Shown here: piece after piece, positions 5,139 to 25,564 of the stretch
How the letters are laid out: every line of letters begins with the position of its first letter
Numbering within the stretch: the stretch's first letter is position 1
Source of the DNA: a virus
UHGV virus genome: UHGV-1455077
Strand: one strand, 5' to 3'
DNA: 64,000 nucleotides
Position numbers and translations under genes: made by a program
Notes under the pieces: model-generated
Database searches by the model: none
What the model was told of the DNA's origin: nothing
What the model saw: only the letters and a program-made list of their open reading frames with translations

Positions 5139-7877
5139 ATGGCAATTAATTGGATAACACCTCAAGGAATATTAATAAATGATTATGAAGAAACACCTGT
5201 AAATAATTTATTCATACAGGTTGAGCCAACTAATGCAATTATTGAAAAAATTGCTGGGGAATATCCAATGAATATGGATTTAAACTACGTTGAACCAGGA
5301 AAATATCAATTAGTCAGTTCAACAGGCAAATTACCAATTGTAAATGAAGAAACAAATTATTATTTCACATTAAGAGCATCTGTTGATGATGAATATTCTG
5401 ACAGATGGTTTGGAATAACAATTTTAAATAAAACAACCGATTGGAATATGCCTGAAACGGCATTTGAATATTCTGAAACATCATACGTTTCATTACAATT
5501 AAAATTATTAAATGCTCAAGGTAATGAAGAATTTTTTAAAATATCTGGTGAATTGCCACCAAATTTATTAATTAATAAAACTGGTTTAATTTATGGAATT
5601 GTAAATGAACAAGAAAAAGAAAAAACATTTTATTTTACAATTGGGGTTAGAAGAAATGATGAAGTTATTTTAACAAAAGATTTTAGTATAAAAGTTGTAA
5701 AATTATCTTCATTAAATGAACCAATATGGATTACTGAAGCAGGTTTTTTAGGTGTATTAAATTATGATGAAGTTTCAACATTATTTGTAAAAGCATATGA
5801 CCCTAATAATTTGCCAATTACCTATACATTATCAACATCAGGAAATGATAATTTACCACCAGGTTTAACATTAGATACAAATACTGGAAAAATTAATGGT
5901 CGTTTGTCAACAAGATATACTGATACTTGGAATTTTTCTGTTAATGTAAACAATGGAGAATATACAGTTTCCAGAGATTTTTATATTAATACAAATGTGA
6001 TTTCTGAAAATAATAAAATTGAATGGGTTTCTGAATCATTATTAGGAAATATTGCAATTGGTAATAACGTTTATATACAATTAGAAACTAATTCTAAAAA
6101 AACAGTTAATTATACTATTGTAAGTGGTCAATTACCAGATGGATTAACATTTTCTTCAACTGGTTCAATAAACGGCGTATTATCATATCAAGATATTAAA
6201 TCATATTCATTTATTGTTGAAGCATCAAATGGTTCAAATGTTATTCAAAAAGAATTTACTATTAATGTAGTTAAAGGCTTAGGTCAAAATGCATTAAAAT
6301 GCTTTTATTATATTAATAATGAATATATGGTTGAATATAATGAAATGAAAAATTCTTTTGATGTTGAAACAGCTTATCAACCATTAAATATTAAATATGA
6401 TATTGCTACAAAACCTCGTATTGATATTTGTACTTTGAATTGTTTTGATAAAATTTTATTAAAACATTTATTAAACTTTAATACAACTGATACTTATCAT
6501 TGGAAAAGAACAGTAAAACAAAATTTTAATAATGAATATTCTGTATATTATAAAGAATTACAAGAAGATAATAGCGATTCTAATACATATCATATTGCTG
6601 GAAATAAAACATTTATTAAACCATCAGAAACTTCACCAACAGGTTGGGTTACAGAATATAATGATACACCAATTCAACCAAATGATACTTTAGGAAATGA
6701 TTGGATTGATGGAAAAACATATTATATTAACTCATTTAATGAAAAAATTTATATAGAATACTTAAATGATTCTATGTATTATGAAACTGAATCATTAAAA
6801 ATTGTACCAAGTGGAACACCAATTTTTAAAGAACAAGTATTATTTCAAAATGAATTAATAGAATATCTTTATATATTAAAAGATGGTGTAAAATATTTTG
6901 TTACTAATGCGGCTGATAATCAATTGTTAAATGTAGAAACACAAACTGTTTTAGCGGATACCCGTGAAAATATTGAACCATTAAAAGATGAAAAAACTCG
7001 TAGATGGTTCTTTATTCCAAATAGTTCATTAAGTATTGTACCAGCATCAGTATCTGGAATTCGAGATATATTGAATACTCAAATATTTGTTGAAAAAAAT
7101 AATAATGAAAATGTTGTATATGATGTTGCAACTCAAGTTATTATTGATGGAATTGATACAAGTAAGAAATTCATTATTAAATGGGATGAAAAAAGAAAAA
7201 CATATTATACTGAATTTAATGGGGAAGAAGTATATTTAGATGTTTATGCAATTCTTGATACCGACCCAACAAAAACTCCAATTCAAGTTGAAGGTTTTAT
7301 CAATGGAACAAATTATCAATTAGTTCGTGTATGGCAACAATTTAATAATACAGATGTTGATTATTTAAATTATTTAATATATGAAAAAGGAACTAATAAA
7401 TTAGAAGAAAATATAATTTTTGAATTAGATTGGAATCGTGGTAATGAGTTTGTGATTCAAAATGGTGTTGTTCATTTTATTAGTTACATAGATAATCCTT
7501 GGATGTATAAACCTGAATTAAATGAATCTGTTGGTTATGGAGAAGAAATCGTATTACCTTATATTTTAGATTATGATGTAAGAGATATTGATAGTAAACC
7601 GTATATATATTTCTTTGATAAAGCCAACGAGTCATTAATTGAATGGAAAGAAAGATATTTTCCAACTCTTGATTTATTTTATTCAAATCTTAATACAAAT
7701 GTGGTATCATTATCTGAATTAAATCAAAAAGAAAGAAAAGGTGAATATTGGACTGGTAAAAAATTTGTATTTTTTGAAGTAACATTTGAACCAATTTATA
7801 ATAAAAATATTGACATATTTGGGATTCAATTTTATAATCATAATCAACCTAATTCACCAGAATTTCAATTAATTTAG
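5139..7877 (+). CDS. large structural protein with repeated putative Ig-like (He_PIG-type) domains
   Basis: 912 aa. Repeats LPPGLTLDTNTGKINGRL, GQLPDGLTFSSTGSINGVL and GELPPNLLINKTGLIYGIV. Confidence 0.5.
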   Translation: MAINWITPQGILINDYEETPVNNLFIQVEPTNAIIEKIAGEYPMNMDLNYVEPGKYQLVSSTGKLPIVNEETNYYFTLRASVDDEYSDRWFGITILNKTTDWNMPETAFEYSETSYVSLQLKLLNAQGNEEFFKISGELPPNLLINKTGLIYGIVNEQEKEKTFYFTIGVRRNDEVILTKDFSIKVVKLSSLNEPIWITEAGFLGVLNYDEVSTLFVKAYDPNNLPITYTLSTSGNDNLPPGLTLDTNTGKINGRLSTRYTDTWNFSVNVNNGEYTVSRDFYINTNVISENNKIEWVSESLLGNIAIGNNVYIQLETNSKKTVNYTIVSGQLPDGLTFSSTGSINGVLSYQDIKSYSFIVEASNGSNVIQKEFTINVVKGLGQNALKCFYYINNEYMVEYNEMKNSFDVETAYQPLNIKYDIATKPRIDICTLNCFDKILLKHLLNFNTTDTYHWKRTVKQNFNNEYSVYYKELQEDNSDSNTYHIAGNKTFIKPSETSPTGWVTEYNDTPIQPNDTLGNDWIDGKTYYINSFNEKIYIEYLNDSMYYETESLKIVPSGTPIFKEQVLFQNELIEYLYILKDGVKYFVTNAADNQLLNVETQTVLADTRENIEPLKDEKTRRWFFIPNSSLSIVPASVSGIRDILNTQIFVEKNNNENVVYDVATQVIIDGIDTSKKFIIKWDEKRKTYYTEFNGEEVYLDVYAILDTDPTKTPIQVEGFINGTNYQLVRVWQQFNNTDVDYLNYLIYEKGTNKLEENIIFELDWNRGNEFVIQNGVVHFISYIDNPWMYKPELNESVGYGEEIVLPYILDYDVRDIDSKPYIYFFDKANESLIEWKERYFPTLDLFYSNLNTNVVSLSELNQKERKGEYWTGKKFVFFEVTFEPIYNKNIDIFGIQFYNHNQPNSPEFQLI

Positions 7878-11955: not shown

Positions 11956-12041
11956 GCAGAGTTATACCGTAGGAGTAGCGGGACAGACTGTAAATCTGTT
12001 GCCTTTTGGCTCGGGTGGTGCGACTCCATCACTCTGCACCA
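11956..12041 (+). tRNA. tRNA-Tyr(GTA), long variable arm, CCA encoded
   Basis: Acceptor GCAGAGT/ACTCTGC; anticodon loop CTGTAAA; T-arm GGTGG-TGCGACT-CCATC. Confidence 0.7.
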
Positions 12042-13287: not shown

Positions 13288-13363
13288 GGTTCGGTGACAG
13301 AACGATTAATGTACCCGTCTGCAAAACGGTGTTTAGTGGGTTTGACTCCCACCCGAATCTCCA
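13288..13363 (+). tRNA. tRNA-Cys(GCA), CCA encoded
   Basis: Acceptor GGTTCGG/CCGAATC; anticodon loop CTGCAAA; T-arm GTGGG-TTTGACT-CCCAC. Confidence 0.6.
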
Positions 13364-13389
13364 TTATTGTTTTTTCAAAATTTTTAAGA

Positions 13390-13520
13390 ATGGTGAGAAA
13401 TTGATTTACATAGACTGGAAATCCGTGTGTAGAAAGTTCGATTCTTTCCCCATCGACCATTTAACGGTGGGTAGCTCATTGGTAGAGCAACGTAAAATGA
13501 TAATCAATTGTTATGTTCCT
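13390..13520 (+). ncRNA. permuted or split tRNA-like unit 1. A tRNA 3' half (T-arm, 3' acceptor strand, ACCA) precedes a 5' half (5' acceptor strand, D-arm), and is itself preceded by the 25-nt motif
   Basis: 3' acceptor CCCATCG at 13449-13455 pairs 7/7 with 5' acceptor CGGTGGG at 13465-13471, 9 nt downstream. D-arm GCTCATTGGTAGAGC follows. A second copy with compensatory acceptor changes is at 23324-23455. Confidence 0.4.
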
Positions 13521-14178
13521 TCTTAATTTTAAAAGTTTTGGTAGTTGGAAGTTAAGCTTTTGGGGCAGGAGCAACTTAACTTCCATCTATTGATGCGTGT
13601 CCTGATTTAATTAATTACCTTCTCGTGGTTCAGGATGTAAGTAAGAATTGCAGTTTTTGACATAAGACAATTCTGAAACTAAAGATTAATATTAAAATGA
13701 TTTAATTGAAGTATAGTAAATTAAATAAGTTGATTAAATAAGTGAGCAAGATAGAATCAACTAAAGGTAATAATATGCAGATTATATGCCGAACTACTAA
13801 CGCTTAAGGTAGATGTAGGAAATAACCTCGGTAGGGCAATTTAATTGTTAATCTCTTAGAAGTCCTAAAAAAATAAACCGTTTTAAAAAACTGCGTTAAA
13901 TTAAAATTTTGAAATTGTTGTTCTCCTTTCATTGTTTTTCATACAACAAGAGTAAAAATATTCTTAGTATCGGGAGAGGTAATATCTTATCTCTCTCTTT
14001 TTATAAAAATGCTGGCAATATTGGTTCGAATCCAATATGTATATCTTATCCTAAAAATTACTATTATAGTATTAGATTTAAATAGTAATGATATGTCAAA
14101 TTTAATAAGAACGTGTTATTGAATTATATACATTAGTTTAATGGTAGAACCCCAGCATTTCTATAAGAAGATTTTTAT

Positions 14179-19014: not shown

Positions 19015-19680
19015 ATGTATTACCTAATTTATAAAATAACTAATAATGTAAATAATAAAATCTATATTGGAAAACATCAAACGGAAAATAAAGATGATGA
19101 TTATATGGGTTCTGGAAAAATAATAAAAAGAGCTATTGAAAAATATGGTATAGATAAATTTACAAAAGAAATATTATATGAATGTAATTCATTAGAAGAA
19201 ATGAATGAAAAAGAAGCAGAAATTGTTGATGAAGAATTTGTTGTTCGTTTAGATACATATAATATTAAATTAGGTGGTCAAGGTGGATGGGATTATGTCC
19301 ATAAATATACTGATTGGAATGGATTTAAATATATAAATTCACAAAAGTTAAATAATAAATCGAATCAGTATAAAATATCTGCTGAAAAACTTAAAAATGA
19401 TGAAAAATATGCAAAAGAATTTTCTTTAAAAATTTCTAATGGATTAAAATTATATTACCAATTACATAATAATCCATTTAAAGGGAAAAAACATACAATT
19501 GAATCAAAAATAAAAATTGGTAAAGCAAATGCTATTAAACAAGCTGGTGAAGGAAATTCCAATTATGGAAAATGTTGGATTTATAATGAAGAATTAAAAG
19601 AAAATAAATCTATTAAAAAAGAAAATTTACAATCTTGGTTAGAGAAAGGTTGGAAAAAAGGGAGAAAAATGAAATTTTAA
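19015..19680 (+). CDS. GIY-YIG homing endonuclease (Seg/I-TevI-like)
   Basis: N-terminal YYLIYKITNNVNNKIYIGKH GIY-YIG motif with conserved Arg, Glu and Asn downstream. Confidence 0.75.
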   Translation: MYYLIYKITNNVNNKIYIGKHQTENKDDDYMGSGKIIKRAIEKYGIDKFTKEILYECNSLEEMNEKEAEIVDEEFVVRLDTYNIKLGGQGGWDYVHKYTDWNGFKYINSQKLNNKSNQYKISAEKLKNDEKYAKEFSLKISNGLKLYYQLHNNPFKGKKHTIESKIKIGKANAIKQAGEGNSNYGKCWIYNEELKENKSIKKENLQSWLEKGWKKGRKMKF

Positions 19681-19811: not shown

Positions 19812-19886
19812 GGCAATGTAGTGAAAAGGTTATCACGACTGACTCATATTCAGTAATTTCAAGTTCGATTCTTGACATTGCTACCA
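19812..19886 (+). tRNA. tRNA-Met/fMet/Ile2(CAT), second CAT-anticodon tRNA, CCA encoded
   Basis: Acceptor GGCAATG/CATTGCT; D-arm GTGAAAAGGTTATCAC; anticodon arm ACTGA-CTCATAT-TCAGT; T-arm TCAAG-TTCGATT-CTTGA. Confidence 0.65.
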
Positions 19887-19916
19887 TTCATTATTAACTT
19901 GTGGGATATTAATTTA

Positions 19917-21080
19917 ATGACAAATTACATTATAAATAATAATATCGTCAGAATTTTTGGCGAAGATGAAATCAATATTAAACCAGAAATTCCATTAGGA
20001 ACATATTTGGTTAAAGAAAATGAATTAACAGGTGAATTGTTTTTAGAAAGAACAGCAGATTTTGTAAAGCCTGAAAAAATATATGGAGAATGTGAATTCC
20101 AATCTGAACGAATTATTAAAACATTTAAAGACAGACCTAATAATACTGGAGTTCTTTTAAATGGTGCAAAAGGTTCAGGAAAAACATTTTTAACTAAGTA
20201 TATTTCCTATAAGCTTTTAAAAGATAATTATCCAACAATAATTATTAATGATATATTTAGTCCAACAAAGTTATCTTTATTAATTCAAACAATTAGTGAA
20301 CCTTGTGTCATTATTTTTGATGAATTTGAAAAAATTTATCAATCAAATAAAAAAGATGATTTGCAAAACCCACAGAATGGTTTACTTTCATTGCTTGATG
20401 GTTTATTTCAAACTAAAAAGCTATTCATCTTTACTTGTAATGATGATAGTAATATTTCAGATTTGATGAAGAATAGACCTGGTAGAATTTTTTATAAATT
20501 GGAATTTAAAGGAATTACTGAAAAAACAATTGAAGAATATTGTGAAGAAAAATTAAATAATAAATCATATATTTCTCAAATTTTTAGTATTCGTAAAATG
20601 ATTAAAGATTTTACCTTTGATATTTTACAAGCAATTGTTGAAGAAGTTAATCGTTATAATGAAACTCCTTTAGATGTTGTTAAAATGCTTAATGTAACTC
20701 CAGAATCTTTATATGCAAAATATACTGTATCAATTAAGCCATTAAAGAATCAACAAATTGTAAAATTTGAAAAATCTTTATGGGTAAATCCATTATCTTC
20801 AGAAGAAGAATCAGTATGGATTTATAGAACTAAAACATCAAATGCAGATGATAATAAATATGTTGTTGAAGACGAGGATATTAAAATTTGTGAGCTTAGT
20901 TGTGAAACTGATGATGATGAAGATAATAATGTTAAAACAGTTACTGATTATTTTCCAGTATCATTGCTTACAATGGTATCATCTAACAAAAATACTTATG
21001 TGTATCAGAATGAAGAATATCAGGTTACTTTAACTAAAAAGATTATTGATACTGATGATATGTGGAAGTATGCATTTTAA
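19917..21080 (+). CDS. AAA+ family ATPase. Start moved to MTNYII, downstream of the tRNA
   Basis: Walker A GAKGSGKT, Walker B IIFDEFE, sensor RPGRIF. The listed ORF start at 19872 overlaps the tRNA. Confidence 0.6.
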   Translation: MTNYIINNNIVRIFGEDEINIKPEIPLGTYLVKENELTGELFLERTADFVKPEKIYGECEFQSERIIKTFKDRPNNTGVLLNGAKGSGKTFLTKYISYKLLKDNYPTIIINDIFSPTKLSLLIQTISEPCVIIFDEFEKIYQSNKKDDLQNPQNGLLSLLDGLFQTKKLFIFTCNDDSNISDLMKNRPGRIFYKLEFKGITEKTIEEYCEEKLNNKSYISQIFSIRKMIKDFTFDILQAIVEEVNRYNETPLDVVKMLNVTPESLYAKYTVSIKPLKNQQIVKFEKSLWVNPLSSEEESVWIYRTKTSNADDNKYVVEDEDIKICELSCETDDDEDNNVKTVTDYFPVSLLTMVSSNKNTYVYQNEEYQVTLTKKIIDTDDMWKYAF

Positions 21081-21268: not shown

Positions 21269-21297
21269 TTGACATATGTTAATTATTATGATATATT
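21269..21297 (+). promoter_or_regulatory. sigma70-like promoter TTGACA-17-TATATT
   Basis: Consensus hexamers; precedes the structured non-coding region. Confidence 0.45.
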
Positions 21298-21299
21298 TA

Positions 21300-21880
21300 A
21301 TTATATTTTAATTTTAAGTAATATATTAAAATCATTTAATAATTGGTTGGCAAGACCAATAGGATGCCTTTTTAAGGCAATGAAAGTAAAATCTTTCTTT
21401 TAATATATGAAGATAAATTATGTCGTGAATGATTTAGTCGGAGAGATAAGCGACTAAGATAAAATAAAAAAATCTCAAATTCCATAGACGTATGGACGGC
21501 ATAATAAATTAAATTGTTGTAACTCAAACAATGGGTAGCCTGCCCATAAGAGTATGCTGGATAATCTGAAAAGATTTGAAGGTAGTTGTGAGTAATACGA
21601 ATCATAAGGTTGAAATAGCCACGGTTGGCTAACCGTGAGTGACGTAAGAACCAGACAAATCGTACAGATGAATAGGTCTGATGGCTGTATCTGGTTGGGA
21701 GTAGTCATTCTCCCCATCCATTAAGCAAAGGAGTAATTAACCTTTGTGGGTGTGACTGAATAATGTGTCGTATGAGGGGCTTGTTGGTAGTCAGGAGTCC
21801 AACCAATAATTTAATTTTAACAGTTTGTGGCAGTCGTTCTGTTTAAAAACTCTGCCTTTTTAAACAAACAGATAGTGATT
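21300..21880 (+). ncRNA. roughly 580-nt ORF-poor region with many stable hairpins; candidate large structured RNA of unassigned family
   Basis: Hairpins TAGTCGgagagataagCGACTA, ATGGGtagcctgCCCAT, CACGGTTggctAACCGTG, GGGAGtagtcattCTCCC, and CTGTTTAAAAA...TTTTTAAACAAACAG. GACTA and TAGTC elements could form a group-I-like P7 helix. Confidence 0.3.
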
Positions 21881-22095
21881 ATTAGATTTACATAGTTCGA
21901 TTCTATATTTTTTCATATAAAAAGGAAAAATGCCAAAAGGGTGGCGTTTACAATCTAATGAATTTTCTTCTGTTTATTTAAAAATTTTCGATAGTGAGTA
22001 TAAGATTTACATAGACCAGACTTTTAATCTGACATTTACAAAATCTTATAGATTGTTCTTCGAATTAATACTTTTTTGTGAATAGTGAGATATTA

Positions 22096-22170
22096 GGTTT
22101 ACATAGCTAAAGTGGTTAAAGCATTTGACTTGAAATCAAAGTATTGTAGGTTCGATTCCTACTGTAATTT
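22096..22170 (+). tRNA. tRNA-like, anticodon TGA (Ser codons) but type I (no long arm); one-nucleotide bulge in the 5' acceptor strand; preceded by the 25-nt motif
   Basis: GGTTTACA-TA-GCT...AGC-A-TTTGA-CTTGAAA-TCAAA-GTATT-GTAGG-TTCGATT-CCTAC-TGTAATT. Confidence 0.35.
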
Positions 22171-22244
22171 TAACTTAATAAAATGTTCTTTCACAAATTT
22201 AATTATTTGACACTTTATTATAAATGTTATATAAATAATAATAT

Positions 22245-22330
22245 GGAAGGTAACTGGCTGGATGAAGACACCGACTTGAAATCGGCTGGGCGTAACTGCT
22301 TTGGGGGTTCGAGTCCCTCACCTTCCGCCA
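22245..22330 (+). tRNA. tRNA-Ser(TGA), type II, CCA encoded
   Basis: Acceptor GGAAGGT/ACCTTCC; anticodon arm CCGA-CTTGAAA-TCGG; long variable arm; T-arm GGGGTTCGAGTCCCTC. Confidence 0.7.
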
Positions 22331-22337
22331 TTTTTAT

Positions 22338-23031
22338 TTGGTATTGTGGGATATGATAAAAGTAAGTAGAAAAGAATACGAAAATAATCCAGAAAAATAT
22401 ATTATATATTGTACAAAATGTAAAAAACCAATAATATTTAAAGATTATAGACATTATTGTGATAGAGTTAATAAAATTAATATTAGACATCATCAACCAT
22501 TTTGTTCAAAAGAATGCTCATATGAATATCATAGATTATTTACAAATAAAGGAATTTGTGATTTTTGTGGTAAAGAGTTTATTAGACAAAATGTTTATGG
22601 GGATAAAAGACAAAAACATACATTTTGTTCACAAAAATGTTCTGCAAAATATTTTAATAGTCATAAAAAATTTGGTTATAGAAAATCAAAAGCTGAAGAA
22701 TATATTGTAAGTCAATTAAAAAAAAGATTATCCGTATTTAAATATTAAAGAAAATGATGTATCAACAATAGGTAAAGAACTTGATATTTATTTACCAGAT
22801 TTAAATTTAGCATTTGAAATTAATGGTATAGTTCATTATAAACCTATATATGGAAAAGAAAAGTTAAATAAAATACAAAATAATGATTTTTTTAAAAAAG
22901 AATTATGTGAAAGTAAAAATATTTTATTGACAATAATTAATATAAGTGATATAAAAGTATTTAAAGAGAATTTAATTATAAATAAATATAATTACATTAA
23001 AGAAATTATAAGTAATACAATGCCACGATAG
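22338..23031 (+). pseudogene. frameshifted Zn-finger/Vsr-like endonuclease gene
   Basis: Frame 0 (22338-22748) encodes a Cys/His-rich domain. The +1 frame from an A-run at 22720 continues as ...GKELDIYLPDLNLAFEINGIVHY... (Vsr/PD-(D/E)xK-like) to 23031, ending inside tRNA-Thr. Confidence 0.4.
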
Positions 23032-23086
23032 CTCAACTGGCAGAGCAACCGATTTGTAATCGGTAGGTTGGGGATTCGACTTCCTC
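23011..23086 (+). tRNA. tRNA-Thr(TGT), CCA encoded
   Basis: Acceptor GCCACGA/TCGTGGC; D-arm GCTCAACTGGCAGAGC; anticodon arm ACCGA-TTTGTAA-TCGGT. Confidence 0.75.
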
Positions 23087-23323
23087 TCGTGGCACCAGAT
23101 TTTAATAAGCTCCCCCGCTAAAGATACTTTGTGTATACAGCGAATATGGGTCAAAGTTTAAACTTTGCATTAAATTATAATAATTGTACAATAAAAAATT
23201 ATGTGAGCATTTTTTAATTTTGTATGGTAATAGTGACTTAAAGAATTACATAGATAACTGATTATTGTCTGCCAAAACAAGAAATTCTTTAAAATTATTC
23301 TTTACCATTTAAACTATTTTAGC

Positions 23324-23455
23324 AATAGTGAGAAAAGGATTTACATAGGTTTGTAACCCGTTGGTAATTGGTTCGAATCCAATCAAGTAATTGAAATATA
23401 TTATTTGTAGCTCATTGGTAGAGCAACGATAAAAAATAATCCTTTATTATGTTCT
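23324..23455 (+). ncRNA. permuted or split tRNA-like unit 2 (paralog of unit 1 at 13390-13520)
   Basis: 25-nt motif, then T-arm ATTGG-TTCGAAT-CCAAT, then 3' acceptor CAAGTAA. Ten nt later 5' acceptor TTATTTG pairs 7/7, followed by TA, D-arm GCTCATTGGTAGAGC and a conserved hairpin ATAAT...TTAT-GTTC. Confidence 0.4.
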
Positions 23456-23489
23456 TTGCTAACAAATATTTGGTGATAGTGATTAATTA

Positions 23490-23563
23490 GGTTTACATAG
23501 CTTAATGGTTAGAGCATTGATTTAACACATCAAACGTTACAGGTTCAACTCCTGTTGTAATTA
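23490..23563 (+). tRNA. tRNA-like, anticodon AAC, bulged 5' acceptor strand; preceded by the 25-nt motif
   Basis: GGTTTACA-TA-GCTT-AATGGTTA-GAGC...TTGAT-TTAACAC-ATCAA...ACAGG-TTCAACT-CCTGT-TGTAATT. Confidence 0.3.
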
Positions 23564-23643
23564 ATACCTAATTTACTATTCTTCACCAGTTCAATTTTGC
23601 ACCCAAGAACATATGTTCTTGGGTATTTTTTTATATAAGTTAT

Positions 23644-23672
23644 TGACAAATCATCTATAAATGAAGTATATT
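23644..23672 (+). promoter_or_regulatory. sigma70-like promoter TTGACA-17-TATATT
   Basis: Upstream of ORF 23699. Confidence 0.45.
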
Positions 23673-24277: not shown

Positions 24278-25564
24278 ATGAAAACAAATAAAGCTGAAAA
24301 GAAACCAGCAATTTACACTAATGAAGGTGGTAAAGCATCTCATATTAGTGATTTAGAAGAATTGAAAAGAGCAACAATGTCTTGTTTGCTTTGGGAAGAT
24401 AACTTCTATGAAGATGGTGTATCAATTGCTGACAGAATTACCTCTTTAGTTAAAAATTGTATTGATAAAGGTCATTATGATGATGTAATTGATATTTTGA
24501 AAACTGTAAAATTTGATATGAGATTACGTCATTGTCCATTGTGGATGATTGTTGCAATTTATAAAGCAGGTAAAACTATTGATAAGAATGTTATTGCATC
24601 TATTCTTACAAGACCAGATGATATGGGAGAATTACTTTCTCTTTATCGTAAAGACCAAGCAAATGCACCTATTCCAAATGCTATGAAAAAAGCTATGGCT
24701 ATTGCCATTACTAAATTTGATGAATATCAATTGGCTAAATGGAATCGTGATGCTAATTACAAATTGGTTGATATTGTAAACATTTGTCATCCACAAGTAA
24801 CTGAAGCTATTGATAAGTTGGTTAAAGGAACTTTAGAAACTCCAAAAACTTGGGAAGTTCTTCTTTCTGCCGCTGGTTCTGATAAAGAAAAGAAAAAAGA
24901 AGCTTGGTTGGATTTGATTGAAACTAATAAATTACCTGATATGGCTCTTTTGAAGAATATTCGTGGTATGTTGGATGTAGGTGTTTCTAAAAACACATTG
25001 GTTGACCGTATTAATAATATTAAAAATGGTAGATTATTGCCAATTGATTATATTAGAGCGGCAAATACAAATCCATCATTGGAAAATGAAATTGAAAAGA
25101 AATTCTTAAATTGCTTTGAAAAACCTTCTTTGAATGGTAAGACTGCAATTTTAGTAGATGTGTCAGGTTCTATGGATGGAGAAAGATTAAATTATGCAAA
25201 TGCATTAGCGATGATTGGTCGTGAAATGTGTGAAAATGTTGATATTTACTCATTCTCTAATGAAGTCAAATTCATTCCAAATCGTAGAGGATTTGCTTTA
25301 GCAGAAGCTATTGATAAATCACAATACCATAATGGAACTTATATGTGGGATGCTATTAGTACAGTTGAAAAAGCTCATTACGATAGATTAATTGTTATTA
25401 CTGATGAGCAAACAATGGGTATGCCACACAACGCAGTTATTAAAAATGCATACATTATTAATGTTGCACCATATAATAAAGGTGTTGGTTACAATAATGG
25501 TTACAAACATATTAATGGTTTTTCAGATAAAGTATTTAATTATATTACTGAAATTGAAAAATAA
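24278..25564 (+). CDS. Ro60/Rsr-like protein: TROVE-like N-terminal region plus C-terminal von Willebrand A domain with MIDAS motif
   Basis: N-terminus NEGGKASHISDLEELKRATMSCLLWEDNFYEDG resembles the Ro60 TROVE start (N.dGGy...L.RfL.fGsEggtYY). vWA domain ILVDVSGSMDG with downstream T and D residues. Confidence 0.45.
   Translation: MKTNKAEKKPAIYTNEGGKASHISDLEELKRATMSCLLWEDNFYEDGVSIADRITSLVKNCIDKGHYDDVIDILKTVKFDMRLRHCPLWMIVAIYKAGKTIDKNVIASILTRPDDMGELLSLYRKDQANAPIPNAMKKAMAIAITKFDEYQLAKWNRDANYKLVDIVNICHPQVTEAIDKLVKGTLETPKTWEVLLSAAGSDKEKKKEAWLDLIETNKLPDMALLKNIRGMLDVGVSKNTLVDRINNIKNGRLLPIDYIRAANTNPSLENEIEKKFLNCFEKPSLNGKTAILVDVSGSMDGERLNYANALAMIGREMCENVDIYSFSNEVKFIPNRRGFALAEAIDKSQYHNGTYMWDAISTVEKAHYDRLIVITDEQTMGMPHNAVIKNAYIINVAPYNKGVGYNNGYKHINGFSDKVFNYITEIEK

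What the first reader, a model, noticed from the sequence alone, without database searches (positions are those of the whole stretch)
23324..23455. Second copy of the permuted tRNA-like unit
Same architecture as 13390-13520: the motif, the T-arm ATTGG-TTCGAAT-CCAAT, CAAGTAA, 10 nt, TTATTTG-TA-GCTCATTGGTAGAGC, and the hairpin. Recorded separately so both loci can be examined. The two copies lie 10 kb apart within the tRNA island.
Basis: seen in the sequence. Interest (0 to 1): 0.55.

Follow-up and report, generated by a model that had tools for sequence, protein, structure and literature searches.

The report
Phage Y RNA mimicking a tRNA
The unit is a real, conserved small-RNA gene of a known kind: a YrlA-type "Y RNA" whose core is a circularly permuted tRNA look-alike, sitting 0.8 kb upstream of the phage's own Ro60/Rsr RNA-binding protein gene. 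It is a divergent new example of that kind, not a new kind of element.

Summary
Window 23321-23460 (+) holds a T arm, a 7-bp acceptor stem closed by a 10-nt loop, and a D arm in permuted order, enclosed by a long stem made from the RNA's two ends.

- **Rfam:** the YrlA model (Y RNA-like, RF02553) matches both units full-length but below its curated threshold (35.4 and 42.5 bits; threshold 69).
- **Neighbouring gene:** the ORF 817 nt downstream on the same strand (24278-25564) is a Ro60/Rsr protein. It has a TROVE domain, and its best solved relative is Thermus phage phiLo Ro60.
- **Conservation:** the same RNA lies upstream of rsr in sister and distant phages and in two bacterial MAGs. In 15 aligned copies, 90.6% of cells are paired against 59.8% in shuffles, and 28 of 36 pairs have changes on both sides.
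- **Literature:** YrlA RNAs are already described as resembling circularly permuted tRNAs.

Unusual features:
- The Ro-binding motif has diverged (AGUGAG in place of GNCGAA).
- A small hairpin plus P3 add up to a 5-bp, 7-nt-loop anticodon-arm look-alike.
- Seven RNAs in the tRNA island share the same "handle", including two cloverleaves called as tRNAs.

It is not a permuted tRNA gene that matures into a decoding tRNA.

The parts
23321..23460 (+). Whole U2 RNA gene (YrlA-type Y RNA), 140 nt, from outer helix to outer helix
   Evidence: Rfam YrlA full-length hit at 23334-23448. Orthologues in L002/L003.
23321..23325 (+). P1 5' strand AGCAA, pairs with TTGCT at 23456-23460
   Evidence: 5 of 5 pairs. 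It covaries among elements and phages (GGTAA/TTACC, GACAA/TTGTC, GGTGA/TCACC, GATGA/TCATC and others).
23326..23333 (+). Conserved handle, 5' side: bulged U, AG step (pairs with CU at 23454-23455), then UGAGA. A diverged counterpart of the GNCGAAN0-1G Ro-binding motif.
   Evidence: Motif series GGCGAAUG (L005) > GGCGAGCA > GGUGAGAA (U1) > AGUGAGAA (U2). AG/CU in U2 versus GG/CC in U1 is compensatory. RNAalifold predicts the bulge plus 2-bp step.
23334..23341 (+). P2 5' strand AAAGGATT, pairs with AATCCTTT at 23438-23445
   Evidence: 8 of 8 pairs. Compensatory changes in L002 (AAAAGATT/AATCTTTT), L003 (GAAAGATT/AATCTTTC) and U1 (AATTGATT/AATCAATT).
23340..23343 (+). UUAC, matching the conserved YUAY of YrlA RNAs; part of the clade-wide TTTACATAG block
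   Evidence: YUAY is defined in PMC4201824.
23348..23358 (+). Small hairpin GG-UUUGUAA-CC (the "V" stem-loop of Chen et al.). Read here as the lower half of an anticodon-arm mimic.
   Evidence: Hairpin stem plus P3 = 5 bp in 12 of 12 copies, and the loop is 7 nt in 10 of 11. The loop is identical to that of the phage tRNA-Thr(UGU) at 23022-23097. The pairing rests on hand alignment; in the MAFFT alignment only 66.7% of cells pair.
23359..23361 (+). P3 5' strand CGU, pairs with ACG at 23426-23428 (equivalent to tRNA 41-43 : 27-29)
   Evidence: The two shared P3 pairs are 100% paired, with 4 and 3 pair types, in 15 sequences.
23362..23366 (+). 5-nt variable loop UGGUA; its last base A48 partners U15 (Levitt pair)
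   Evidence: 15:48 covaries as G:C, A:U or U:A across the family.
23367..23383 (+). T arm ATTGG-TTCGAAT-CCAAT
   Evidence: 100% of cells paired, and 4 of 5 pairs have changes on both sides.
23384..23407 (+). Acceptor-stem mimic CAAGTAA / TTATTTG (7 bp) closed by the loop TTGAAATATA; no CCA encoded
   Evidence: Compensatory in L003 (CAGATGA/TCATTTG). All 7 pairs have changes on both sides.
23408..23425 (+). U8-A9, D arm GCTC-ATTGGTA-GAGC (with G18 G19), then A26
   Evidence: The D stem is nearly invariant across the family.
23429..23455 (+). 3' side: linker AUAAAAAAU, P2 3' strand, then the conserved handle AUUAUGUU-CU
   Evidence: The 3' block (U)AUGUUCY is conserved from the window clade to distant phages as CGCUUGUUCC.
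24278..25564 (+). rsr: Ro60/Rsr orthologue (428 aa), the presumed protein partner, 817 nt downstream on the same strand
   Evidence: Pfam TROVE 2.5e-17 plus a weak VWA match. PHROG 850 RNA-binding protein 1.7e-28. Best PDB relatives 9KOP/9L5Y, Thermus phage phiLo Ro60, E = 1.9e-13 over residues 14-427.
13384..13526 (+).
   Evidence: Rfam YrlA 42.5 bits. Same segment plan. Nearly identical in L133/L135.
23226..23306 (+). Short handle-bearing RNA (YrlB-like), insert AGATAA-CTGATTA-TTGTCT, 14 nt upstream of U2
   Evidence: Orthologues in L002/L003 have compensatory P1.
23472..23587 (+). Handle-bearing RNA whose insert is a whole cloverleaf (ARAGORN "tRNA-Val aac"), 11 nt downstream of U2
   Evidence: No CCA encoded. 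The orthologue has anticodon TGA.
21868..22194 (+). Three more handle-bearing RNAs: 21868-21973 (T-arm-like insert), 21987-22064 (hairpin with CUUUUAA loop), 22078-22194 (cloverleaf called "tRNA-Ser tga")
23601..23634 (+). Intrinsic-terminator-like hairpin plus T run, ending the tRNA/sRNA unit that contains U2
   Evidence: Also present in L002/L003.
23643..23672 (+). Promoter-like site TTGACA-18-TATATT ahead of two small ORFs and rsr
   Evidence: 11 of 12 consensus matches. This is a consensus match only.

Best explanation
U2 is a phage-encoded Y RNA of the YrlA type.

**Shown by sequence and comparison**
- The transcript folds so that its 5' and 3' ends pair into a long stem: P1, then a conserved bulged internal module, then P2.
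- That stem carries a tRNA-shaped domain made of a T arm, a closed 7-bp acceptor stem and a D arm, joined by a short helix P3.
- The nucleotides that give tRNA its L shape are present: U8, A14, G18 G19, the UUCGAAU T loop, and a 15:48 pair.

**Inferred from the family**
- The conserved terminal module (U-AG-UGAG // UAUGUU-CU) is the binding site for the phage Ro60/Rsr ring encoded 0.8 kb downstream.
- The tRNA-like domain is the effector module. It tethers or gates Rsr with respect to a host partner, most likely the exoribonuclease PNPase, as in the Ro60-Y RNA-PNPase complexes (RYPER) of Deinococcus and Salmonella and the complex reported for Thermus phage phiLo. The phage could thereby redirect host decay of structured RNA during infection.

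**Inferred for this clade**
- Because the acceptor stem is 7 bp with an 8-10-nt loop, RNase P may cut it and CCA may be added, as shown for Mycobacterium smegmatis YrlA. That would give a two-piece RNA.
- U2 is probably cut out of a polycistronic tRNA/sRNA transcript that ends at the terminator at 23601-23634.
For: - **Rfam:** YrlA matches both units over the full model and on the + strand only. It also matches directly upstream of rsr in L002, L003, L005, L010 and L011.
- **Protein partner:** the ORF 817 nt downstream on the same strand has a TROVE domain. Its closest solved structure is phiLo Ro60, which binds phage-encoded Y-like RNAs and forms a ternary complex with host PNPase (PMC12135203).
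- **Independent structure prediction:** MAFFT plus RNAalifold on 15 copies recovers P1, the bulge plus 2-bp step, P2, and the T, acceptor and D arms, with 25 of 31 pairs compensatory.
- **Pair counts:** 90.6% of cells paired against 59.8% shuffled (0 of 500 shuffles reach it) and at most 46.8% with slid partners; covariation score 0.79 against 0.21.
- **Swapped-partner control:** 97-100% pairing with the own partner against 46-63% with other elements' partners.
- **Tertiary pair:** the Levitt 15:48 pair covaries as G:C, A:U or U:A.
- **Handle motif:** it grades into the published GNCGAAN0-1G, with an exact GGCGAAUG in L005. UUAC matches YUAY.
- **Distribution:** the same scaffold accompanies rsr in distant phages (Xanthomonas phage Tabio, Caulobacter phage CcrColossus) and in two bacterial MAGs.
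- **Coding potential:** no ORF of 50 aa or more overlaps U2.
- **Published criteria and precedents:** PMC4201824 and bioRxiv 10.1101/312249.
Against: - The Rfam score is about half the curated gathering score (35.4 against 69), so a standard pipeline reports nothing here.
- The literal GNCGAAN0-1G / CGAA motif is absent from U2. In phiLo, single CGAA substitutions weaken binding 3-4 fold.
- There is no direct evidence of transcription, RNA ends, Rsr binding, RNase P cleavage or a PNPase partner.
- Folding energy alone is unremarkable (z = -2.0 on the + strand, -2.5 on the - strand).
- U1 lies 10.8 kb from rsr, outside the 4-kb rule used in the literature.
- Three of the Rsr loci inspected show no clear handle-bearing RNA.
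Confidence: 0.85

Rival explanations
1. A true circularly permuted tRNA gene. The transcript would be cut at its termini, circularised, and opened at the acceptor loop by RNase P and RNase Z, giving a normal decoding tRNA (here Thr, anticodon UGU).
For: The order is right: 3' half, then 10 nt, then 5' half. When un-permuted in silico, U2 and 10 relatives are all called tRNAs by ARAGORN (U2 as tRNA-Thr UGU), and none are when the small hairpin is left out. The 7-nt loop equals that of the phage's tRNA-Thr.
Against: - The termini do not form the defining bulge-helix-bulge (BHB) motif. At the junction there are 6-nt and 9-nt linkers followed by an 8-bp helix (definition in PMC3978253).
- Permuted tRNA genes are known only from algae and one archaeon, which have the splicing endonuclease. 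No such enzyme or RNA ligase was seen among the window ORFs scanned.
- The phage already has a normal tRNA-Thr(UGU) 0.3 kb upstream.
- The conserved handle and the adjacency to rsr would have no explanation.
- The "anticodon" differs freely among homologues (UGU, GGA, AGG, UUU, GUU, UGG).
- ARAGORN still of 11 with a shuffled hairpin, so that test is weak.
Confidence: 0.03
2. A handle-bearing tRNA mimic that works independently of Rsr. It could be a decoy or sponge for host tRNA-directed nucleases or tRNA-binding enzymes, or the shared flanks could be a common processing cassette (RNase III/E sites) for island RNAs.
For: The same flanks surround cloverleaves and anticodon-loop-like hairpins as well as U1 and U2. 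U1 is 10.8 kb from rsr. All of these lie in a polycistronic tRNA island.
Against: - The handle travels with rsr across very distant phages and bacteria, usually immediately upstream and on the same strand.
- It grades into the published Ro-binding motif.
- The 17 ordinary tRNA genes that encode CCA lack it.
- A decoy role and Rsr binding are not mutually exclusive.
Confidence: 0.08
3. A decayed remnant of two adjacent tRNA genes: the T arm and 3' end of one, and the 5' end and D arm of the next. This is a known false-positive source for YrlA searches.
For: The unit lies in a dense tRNA island. Chen et al. warn that dimeric tRNAs can score as YrlA.
Against: - The two "acceptor" strands are complementary to each other (7 of 7) and covary together in orthologues.
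- No tRNA call overlaps the unit.
- The missing halves are replaced by conserved, covarying P2, P1 and P3.
- Two paralogues and many homologues keep the same plan.
Confidence: 0.02
4. A two-piece (permuted) tmRNA-like gene.
For: Permuted order of the acceptor/T piece and the 5' piece. U1 carries G3.U70, A73 and CCA, as tmRNA does.
Against: ARAGORN, which detects tmRNA genes, finds none in the window. The element is only 140 nt, with no tag reading frame or pseudoknots, and its D arm is a full tRNA-type D arm. The Rfam best hit is YrlA, not tmRNA.
Confidence: 0.01

Closest known systems
YrlA (Y RNA-like A; Rfam RF02553) of Salmonella Typhimurium, Mycobacterium smegmatis and about 250 bacteria plus 22 phages (Chen et al. 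2014, PMC4201824; crystal structure of the tRNA-like domain, bioRxiv 10.1101/312249)
   Same: - Encoded next to the Ro60/Rsr gene on the same strand.
- Terminal stem formed by the 5' and 3' ends.
- T arm, closed acceptor stem and D arm in permuted order.
- YUAY motif and tRNA tertiary-pair nucleotides, including a covarying 15:48 pair.
- A fourth "V" stem-loop upstream of the T arm.
- The 7-bp acceptor stem resembles M. smegmatis YrlA, which RNase P cuts and which receives CCA.
   Different: - Scores only 35-43 bits against the Rfam model (threshold 69).
- The 5' motif is AGUGAG/GGUGAG, not GNCGAA.
- The 15:48 pair is U:A.
- Very AT-rich.
- Sits inside a jumbo-phage tRNA island with six sibling RNAs that share the handle.
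- I read the "V" hairpin plus P3 as a 5-bp, 7-nt-loop anticodon-arm mimic, whereas S. Typhimurium YrlA is described as lacking an anticodon loop.
Yrl1/Yrl2 and phiRo60 of Thermus phage phiLo (PMC12135203; PDB 9KOP, 9L5Y)
   Same: A phage-encoded Ro60 with Y-like RNAs encoded upstream of the gene. phiRo60 is the closest solved relative of the window's Rsr. It gives experimental precedent for phage Ro60 binding phage RNAs and engaging host PNPase.
   Different: The phiLo RNAs were defined by CGAA motifs and predicted folds. By inspection, the phiLo upstream region shows neither the P1 / bulge / GG...GUUCC scaffold nor a tRNA-like domain. Protein identity to the window Rsr is only about 25%.
Deinococcus radiodurans Yrn1 (Y RNA of the RYPER complex)
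   Same: A Ro-binding stem plus a tRNA-like effector module that tethers Rsr to PNPase. Its module has the ordinary (non-permuted) orientation with an anticodon-like arm, like the two cloverleaf-bearing siblings at 22078-22194 and 23472-23587.
   Different: U2 has the opposite (permuted) orientation. No Yrn1 sequence was compared here.
Circularly permuted tRNA genes of Cyanidioschyzon merolae, green algae and Thermofilum pendens (PMC3978253)
   Same: The 3' half precedes the 5' half, with a short intervening sequence that closes the acceptor stem. RNase P and 3' processing are expected at that loop.
   Different: Those genes have a BHB motif at the termini, are circularised by the splicing endonuclease and ligase, and yield ordinary aminoacylated tRNAs. 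U2 has no BHB, and instead has a conserved protein-binding handle. It lies in a phage, where no such pathway is known.
Two-piece tmRNA from permuted ssrA genes
   Same: A permuted gene order that gives a tRNA-like domain assembled from two strands. U1 (not U2) shares the alanine identity set G3.U70 / A73 / CCA.
   Different: No tag ORF, no pseudoknots, far shorter, and not called by ARAGORN.

Membership tests
YrlA / bacterial Y RNA (Rfam RF02553; Chen et al. 2014) | Encoded within about 4 kb of a Ro60/Rsr (TROVE) gene on the same strand | tested here: met
   U2 ends 817 nt upstream of the TROVE ORF at 24278-25564, both on the + strand. U1, at 10.8 kb, does not meet this.
YrlA / bacterial Y RNA (Rfam RF02553; Chen et al. 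2014) | Covariance-model score at or above the curated threshold | tested here: not met
   35.4 bits (U2) and 42.5 bits (U1) against a gathering score of 69. The matches are full-length (model positions 1-114); E = 1.5e-4 and 1.3e-6 in 18 kb. Nothing is reported at gathering thresholds.
YrlA / bacterial Y RNA (Rfam RF02553; Chen et al. 2014) | GNCGAAN0-1G motif near the 5' end (presumed Ro60 contact) | tested here: not met
   U2 has AGUGAGAA and U1 has GGUGAGAA at the homologous position. Relatives form a graded series up to an exact GGCGAAUG in L005 5322-5454. The motif is diverged, not absent.
YrlA / bacterial Y RNA (Rfam RF02553; Chen et al. 2014) | Long stem formed by pairing of the 5' and 3' ends | tested here: met
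   P1 (5 bp), a 2-bp step and P2 (8 bp). The P1-plus-step helix is 93% paired and P2 is 85% paired over 15 sequences. All 8 P2 pairs and 6 of the 7 P1-plus-step pairs have changes on both sides.
YrlA / bacterial Y RNA (Rfam RF02553; Chen et al. 2014) | Conserved T and D stem-loops with a closed acceptor-like stem-loop between them (permuted order) | tested here: met
   T arm 23367-23383, acceptor mimic 23384-23407, D arm 23410-23424. Covariation.
YrlA / bacterial Y RNA (Rfam RF02553; Chen et al. 2014) | tRNA tertiary-interaction nucleotides, including a compensating Levitt 15:48 pair, and the YUAY motif | tested here: met
   U8, A14, G18 G19, UUCGAAU and UUAC are present. The 15:48 pair is U:A in the window clade and G:C or A:U in relatives. 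This was tested by sequence only.
YrlA / bacterial Y RNA (Rfam RF02553; Chen et al. 2014) | Physical association with Rsr; TruB/DusA modification; PNPase tethering | not testable with these tools
   Needs RIP/CLIP, EMSA and modification mapping.
Circularly permuted tRNA genes (Soma et al.; PMC3978253) | 3' half upstream of the 5' half, joined by a short intervening sequence at the acceptor end | tested here: met
   CAAGTAA, 10 nt, TTATTTG.
Circularly permuted tRNA genes (Soma et al.; PMC3978253) | Leader and trailer form a bulge-helix-bulge (BHB) motif at the junction (two 3-nt bulges around a 4-bp helix) | tested here: not met
   At the junction (between tRNA positions 29 and 30) there are 6-nt and 9-nt single strands, followed by the 8-bp P2. 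Definition.
Circularly permuted tRNA genes (Soma et al.; PMC3978253) | Joining the ends restores a full cloverleaf with a 5-bp anticodon stem and a 7-nt loop | tested here: inconclusive
   The geometry fits: hairpin plus P3 = 5 bp, loop 7 nt, and ARAGORN of 11 un-permuted RNAs. But 9 of 11 are still called with shuffled hairpins, and the hairpin stem in U2 is only 2 bp.
Circularly permuted tRNA genes (Soma et al.; PMC3978253) | Splicing endonuclease and ligase present; circular intermediate; mature aminoacylated tRNA | not testable with these tools
   No such enzyme was found among the window ORFs scanned. The rest of the 217-kb genome and the host are not available here.
Two-piece tmRNA | Tag-peptide reading frame and pseudoknots attached to the tRNA-like domain | tested here: not met
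   ARAGORN finds no tmRNA, and the 140-nt element has no room for them.
Ro60/Rsr protein (for the partner ORF 24278-25564) | TROVE (HEAT-repeat ring) domain followed by a vWA domain | tested here: met
   TROVE 2.5e-17, above the Pfam cut-off. VWA_2 is weak (0.0025, below the cut-off). The alignment to phiLo Ro60 covers residues 14-427. PHROG 850.

The most novel reading that the evidence does not exclude
The phage carries a "tRNA-part display" array: at least seven RNAs share one Ro60/Rsr-binding handle but present different pieces of tRNA.
- Two are complete circularly permuted tRNAs, with an anticodon arm nicked between positions 29 and 30. One of them, U1, carries the alanine identity set G3.U70 / A73 / CCA, like tmRNA.
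- Two are ordinary-orientation cloverleaves whose anticodons change between close relatives.
- The rest are isolated hairpins that resemble anticodon loops or T arms.

On this reading, the modules direct the phage Ro60 ring to host factors that recognise tRNA (anticodon nucleases, tRNA repair or modification enzymes, aminoacyl-tRNA synthetases, PNPase), or act as decoys for them. The "V arm" of YrlA RNAs would in general be an anticodon-arm mimic and not a variable arm.
Probability: 0.15. Interest if true: 0.7.

Novelty: new variant of a known kind. Interest (0 to 1): 0.4.

Why it matters
Ro60-Y RNA particles are conserved from bacteria to humans, but the role of the tRNA-like module in bacterial Y RNAs is still unknown.

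- **Comparative material:** a jumbo phage that places two YrlA-type RNAs and five sibling RNAs with the same handle inside its tRNA island gives a compact natural set of variants, one handle with many modules. This could show what the module recognises.
- **Anti-defence link:** it fits recent evidence that phage Ro60 engages host PNPase.
- **Annotation:** these RNAs fall below Rfam's curated threshold, so pipelines miss them. Two handle-bearing cloverleaves are called tRNA-Ser and tRNA-Val, which may inflate or distort predicted phage tRNA repertoires.

Tried and rejected
- **Nucleotide search of cultured phages** with 1.4 kb around U2: only the neighbouring tRNA-Thr matched, and there was no close relative.
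It was useful only after filtering for the full scaffold.
- **MAFFT alignment of the five close copies** (A1): it misplaced gaps around L003's shorter acceptor loop. I replaced it with a hand-segmented alignment and a 15-sequence alignment (A2).
- **Thermodynamics**: z-scores near -2 on both strands do not discriminate. The MFE holds 29 of 36 model pairs for U2 but only 19 of 38 for U1. An alternative GUGA/UUAU pairing in the handle, seen in the MFE, is not conserved in distant relatives.
- **Un-permuting test with ARAGORN**: positive for 11 of 11, but the shuffled-hairpin control is still called in 9 of 11. It supports only size and geometry.
- **Looking for the parent tRNA**: un-permuted U2 and U1 are 62-68% identical to several phage tRNAs (median 57-58%), with no specific parent.
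- **phiLo Yrl1/Yrl2**: the region upstream of phiRo60 has the two CGAA motifs but not this scaffold, so it gives no direct bridge to the validated RNAs.
- **Neighbouring ORFs**: no RtcB, RNA ligase, PNPase, CCA-adding enzyme or splicing endonuclease was found in the window.
- **Bacterial genome scan with the Rsr protein**: only three loci came back, too few to name a host.
Full report
**1. The observation**

In exact coordinates:
- T arm ATTGG-TTCGAAT-CCAAT, 23367-23383
- CAAGTAA, 23384-23390
- 10-nt loop TTGAAATATA, 23391-23400
- TTATTTG, 23401-23407, which pairs 7 of 7 with CAAGTAA
- TA, then the D arm GCTC-ATTGGTA-GAGC, 23410-23424
- AAAGGATT (23334-23341) pairing with AATCCTTT (23438-23445)

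Unit 1 (13384-13526) has the same plan, with different but still complementary stems. The window is a 26.6% G+C phage tRNA island. ARAGORN tRNA genes, all on the + strand. The window corresponds to a 216.8-kb viral contig, IMGVR_UViG_3300045988_152892.

**2. What it is**

- **Rfam hits.** A permissive Rfam scan gave two hits in the island that are not tRNA matches and are not easily dismissed as chance. Both are to YrlA (Y RNA-like, RF02553), both cover the full model on the + strand, and they fall exactly on the two units. Scores are 42.5 bits (13407-13520) and 35.4 bits (23334-23448), against a gathering score of 69. At curated thresholds nothing but tRNAs is reported.
- **The neighbouring protein.** The ORF 817 nt downstream on the same strand (24278-25564, 428 aa) has a TROVE domain (2.5e-17) and a weak vWA match. 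It belongs to PHROG 850, "RNA-binding protein". Its closest solved structure is the Ro60 of Thermus phage phiLo (9KOP/9L5Y, E = 1.9e-13, residues 14-427).
- **Published definition.** Chen et al. 2014 (PMC4201824) define YrlA RNAs as encoded within 4 kb of the Ro60 orthologue on the same strand. They have a 5' GNCGAAN0-1G motif, a YUAY motif, nearly invariant T and D stem-loops with an acceptor-like stem-loop between them, often a fourth "V" stem-loop, and tRNA tertiary pairs including a compensating 15:48 pair. They reported 355 candidates in 254 bacteria and 22 phages.

**3. Comparative evidence**

Using the Rsr protein I fetched 12 viral loci, three bacterial MAG loci and cultured-phage loci.

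- **Sister phages** (Rsr 86% identical) carry orthologous U2 copies with compensatory changes. P2 is AAAGGATT/AATCCTTT in the window, AAAAGATT/AATCTTTT in L002 and GAAAGATT/AATCTTTC in L003. The acceptor stem is CAAGTAA/TTATTTG in the window and CAGATGA/TCATTTG in L003. U1 orthologues are almost identical to the window copy.
- **An outer helix.** The 4-7 nt just 5' of TAGTGA pair with the nt just 3' of TGTTCTT and covary. Examples are GGTAA/TTACC versus GACAA/TTGTC, GGTGA/TCACC versus GATGA/TCATC, and GTGAA/TTCAC versus GCGAA/TTCGC.
- **Distant loci.** The same scaffold appears where Rsr is only 34-40% identical, in GC-rich phages and in two bacterial MAGs. The plan is P1, a bulged nucleotide, GG, YGNRR, P2, UUAC(UUC), insert, P2', CGCUUGUU, CC, P1'. 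Rfam YrlA also hits immediately upstream of rsr in L005, L010, L011, L002 and L003.
- **Hand-segmented alignment.** In 10 YrlA-type copies, each helix pairs 97-100% with its own partner against 46-63% with partners swapped between elements.
- **Independent check.** MAFFT plus RNAalifold on 15 copies recovers P1, the bulge plus 2-bp step, P2, and the T, acceptor and D arms, with 25 of 31 pairs compensatory.
- **Pair counts.** After adding the short P3 and hairpin pairs, 90.6% of cells are paired, against 59.8% in shuffles (0 of 500 reach it) and at most 46.8% with slid partners. The covariation score is 0.79 against 0.21.
- **Tertiary pair.** The 15:48 pair covaries as G:C, A:U or, in the window clade, U:A.
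- **Strand.** G.U pairs in the acceptor stems fit RNA on the + strand only.

**4. The handle**

U2 lacks a literal GNCGAA. Homologous positions form a graded series: GGCGAAUG (exact motif, L005 5322-5454), then GGCGAGCA (L005 5730-5867), then GGUGAGAA (U1), then AGUGAGAA (U2).

The first two bases of this block pair with the CY that precedes P1'. U2 has AG/CU and U1 has GG/CC, which is a compensatory difference. UUAC at 23340-23343 corresponds to YUAY.

In phiLo, single substitutions in CGAA weaken Ro60 binding only 3-4 fold, so a diverged motif paired with a co-evolving protein is plausible. That this module binds the phage Rsr is an inference from position, conservation and family precedent. 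It has not been shown.

**5. Features beyond the textbook YrlA**

- **(a) A possible anticodon-arm mimic.** The small hairpin 5' of P3 (Chen's "V") has a 7-nt loop in 10 of 11 copies, and its stem plus P3 total 5 bp in 12 of 12: 2+3 in the window clade and L005 copy 1, 3+2 elsewhere, and 0+5 in L007.
  - The strand Vb+P3a is continuous (CCCGU in U2) and is followed by a 5-nt variable loop and the T arm. P3b follows N26.
  - Geometrically this is an anticodon arm nicked between positions 29 and 30, where the strands leave for P2.
  - Un-permuted in silico, 11 of 11 are called tRNAs by ARAGORN (U2 as Thr-UGU) and 0 of 11 without the hairpin. But 9 of 11 are still called with the hairpin shuffled, so the test supports size, not pairing.
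  - In the MAFFT alignment the hairpin columns pair only 66.7%. I treat this as a plausible reinterpretation, not a result.
- **(b) The acceptor stem.** It is 7 bp with an 8-10-nt loop in this clade, against 5-8 bp closed by 4-8-nt loops (tetraloops in most) in the more distant copies. According to Chen et al., only the 7-bp M. smegmatis YrlA is cut by RNase P and receives CCA, so processing into two pieces is predicted here.
- **(c) Transcription context.** There is a promoter-like site at 21269-21297. A terminator at 23601-23634 follows right after the next element. A second promoter-like site at 23643-23672 precedes two small ORFs and rsr. U2 is therefore probably processed from a polycistronic tRNA/sRNA transcript (inference).

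**6. Siblings**

Seven elements in the window share the handle:
- U1 and U2, with the permuted tRNA-like insert
- 22078-22194 and 23472-23587, with whole cloverleaves that ARAGORN calls tRNA-Ser(tga) and tRNA-Val(aac)
- 21987-22064 and 23226-23306, with short hairpins carrying 7-nt loops
- 21868-21973, with a T-arm-like hairpin

L005 has a similar array of five plus one genuine tRNA directly upstream of rsr. Multiple Y RNAs per locus, and short YrlB-type RNAs, are already known.

**7. Function**

By analogy with Deinococcus and Salmonella RYPER and with phiLo, the most likely mechanism is a phage Ro60-Y RNA particle. The handle binds the Rsr ring, and the tRNA-like module engages or gates a host partner, with PNPase the best candidate. 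This would alter decay of structured RNA in the infected cell. No partner gene was found in the window.

**8. Rivals**

- **True permuted tRNA gene.** It fails the BHB criterion and the phyletic and enzymatic context, and it leaves the handle unexplained.
- **Remnant of two tandem tRNAs.** Excluded by the mutual complementarity and covariation of the two acceptor strands and by the enclosing helices.
- **Two-piece tmRNA.** Excluded by size, the absence of a tag, and ARAGORN.
- **Rsr-independent decoy or processing cassette.** Cannot be excluded, but it does not explain why the handle travels with rsr across phyla.

**9. Verdict**

This is a real RNA gene and a divergent representative of a known class: a YrlA-type Y RNA next to a phage Ro60. 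It functions like a YrlA and is connected to canonical members by intermediates. It fails two strict membership tests, the Rfam threshold and the literal motif, so I file it as a new variant of a known kind. Interest is moderate. The class and its phage members have been known since 2014, but the one-handle, many-modules array, the possible anticodon-arm mimic, and U1's alanine-type acceptor end are worth following up.

Noticed in passing
window 13384-13526 (U1), acceptor 13447-13469: U1's acceptor mimic CGGTGGG/CCCATCG has a G3.U70 wobble pair. The closing loop begins ACCA, an encoded A73 plus CCA. Together these are the alanine identity set used by AlaRS and by tmRNA. U2 has neither. The sequence is identical in L133 and L135.
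   Followed up: partly
window 22078-22194 and 23472-23587: Two RNAs called tRNA-Ser(tga) and tRNA-Val(aac), with Rfam tRNA scores of 59-61 bits, are embedded in the same P1/handle/P2 scaffold as the Y RNAs.
- They lack the encoded CCA that 17 of the 21 island tRNA calls carry.
- They have weak 1:72 and 2:71 pairs.
- Their anticodons differ in close relatives (TGA/TTT/GTT and AAC/TGA).
- The L005 homologue (5459-5573) has no real acceptor stem.

They may be tRNA-like Y RNA modules in the ordinary orientation and not decoding tRNAs.
   Followed up: partly
window 22245-22330: A class II tRNA with a long variable arm, anticodon loop CTTGAAA (UGA) and a 3' GCCA. ARAGORN missed it, and Rfam reported it only as a weak tRNA-Sec hit (30.7 bits). 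It is probably the real tRNA-Ser(UGA), which would make the "Ser tga" call at 22096 redundant.
   Followed up: partly
window 21868-21973 and ORF 21930-22085: This handle-bearing element has an insert with a T-arm-like hairpin (ATAG-TTCGATT-CTAT). It also contains a Shine-Dalgarno-like AAAGGAAAAATG that starts a 51-aa ORF running through the next Y-like element. Whether that ORF is real is unknown.
   Followed up: no
window 21987-22064 and 23226-23306: Short YrlB-like RNAs whose only insert is a hairpin with a 7-nt anticodon-loop-like loop (CAGA-CUUUUAA-UCUG and AGAUAA-CUGAUUA-UUGUCU).
   Followed up: partly
window 13288-13360 and 11958-12036: Two extra tRNA-like hits from Rfam (46.8 and 29.8 bits) that ARAGORN does not call. 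The first lies immediately upstream of U1.
   Followed up: no
window 13549-13590: A strong hairpin, GGAAGTTAAG...CTTAACTTCC, downstream of U1. In sister phages a TTGACA promoter-like box follows U1 instead.
   Followed up: no
window 19015-19680 and 19872-21080: A GIY-YIG/NUMOD3 homing-endonuclease-like ORF and an AAA+/STAND-like ATPase (PHROG 2376) sit in the middle of the tRNA island.
   Followed up: no
L009 about 5720-5960; L008 about 2230-2480; L141 1810-1900 and 2613-2758: Distant phage rsr loci carry tandem arrays of two to three short handle-bearing RNAs (P1 - UGGCGUAG - P2 - AUACUUC ... CGCUUGUUCC - P1'). CcrColossus has a second YrlA-type copy with a different D arm. None of these is annotated in the public records.
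   Followed up: partly
Phage collection hits H63-H83: crAss-like Bacteroides phages (crAss001, the PhiCrAssBcn series, cr106_1, cr112_1) encode TROVE/Ro60 proteins 31-33% identical to this one. Their flanking RNAs were not examined.
   Followed up: no
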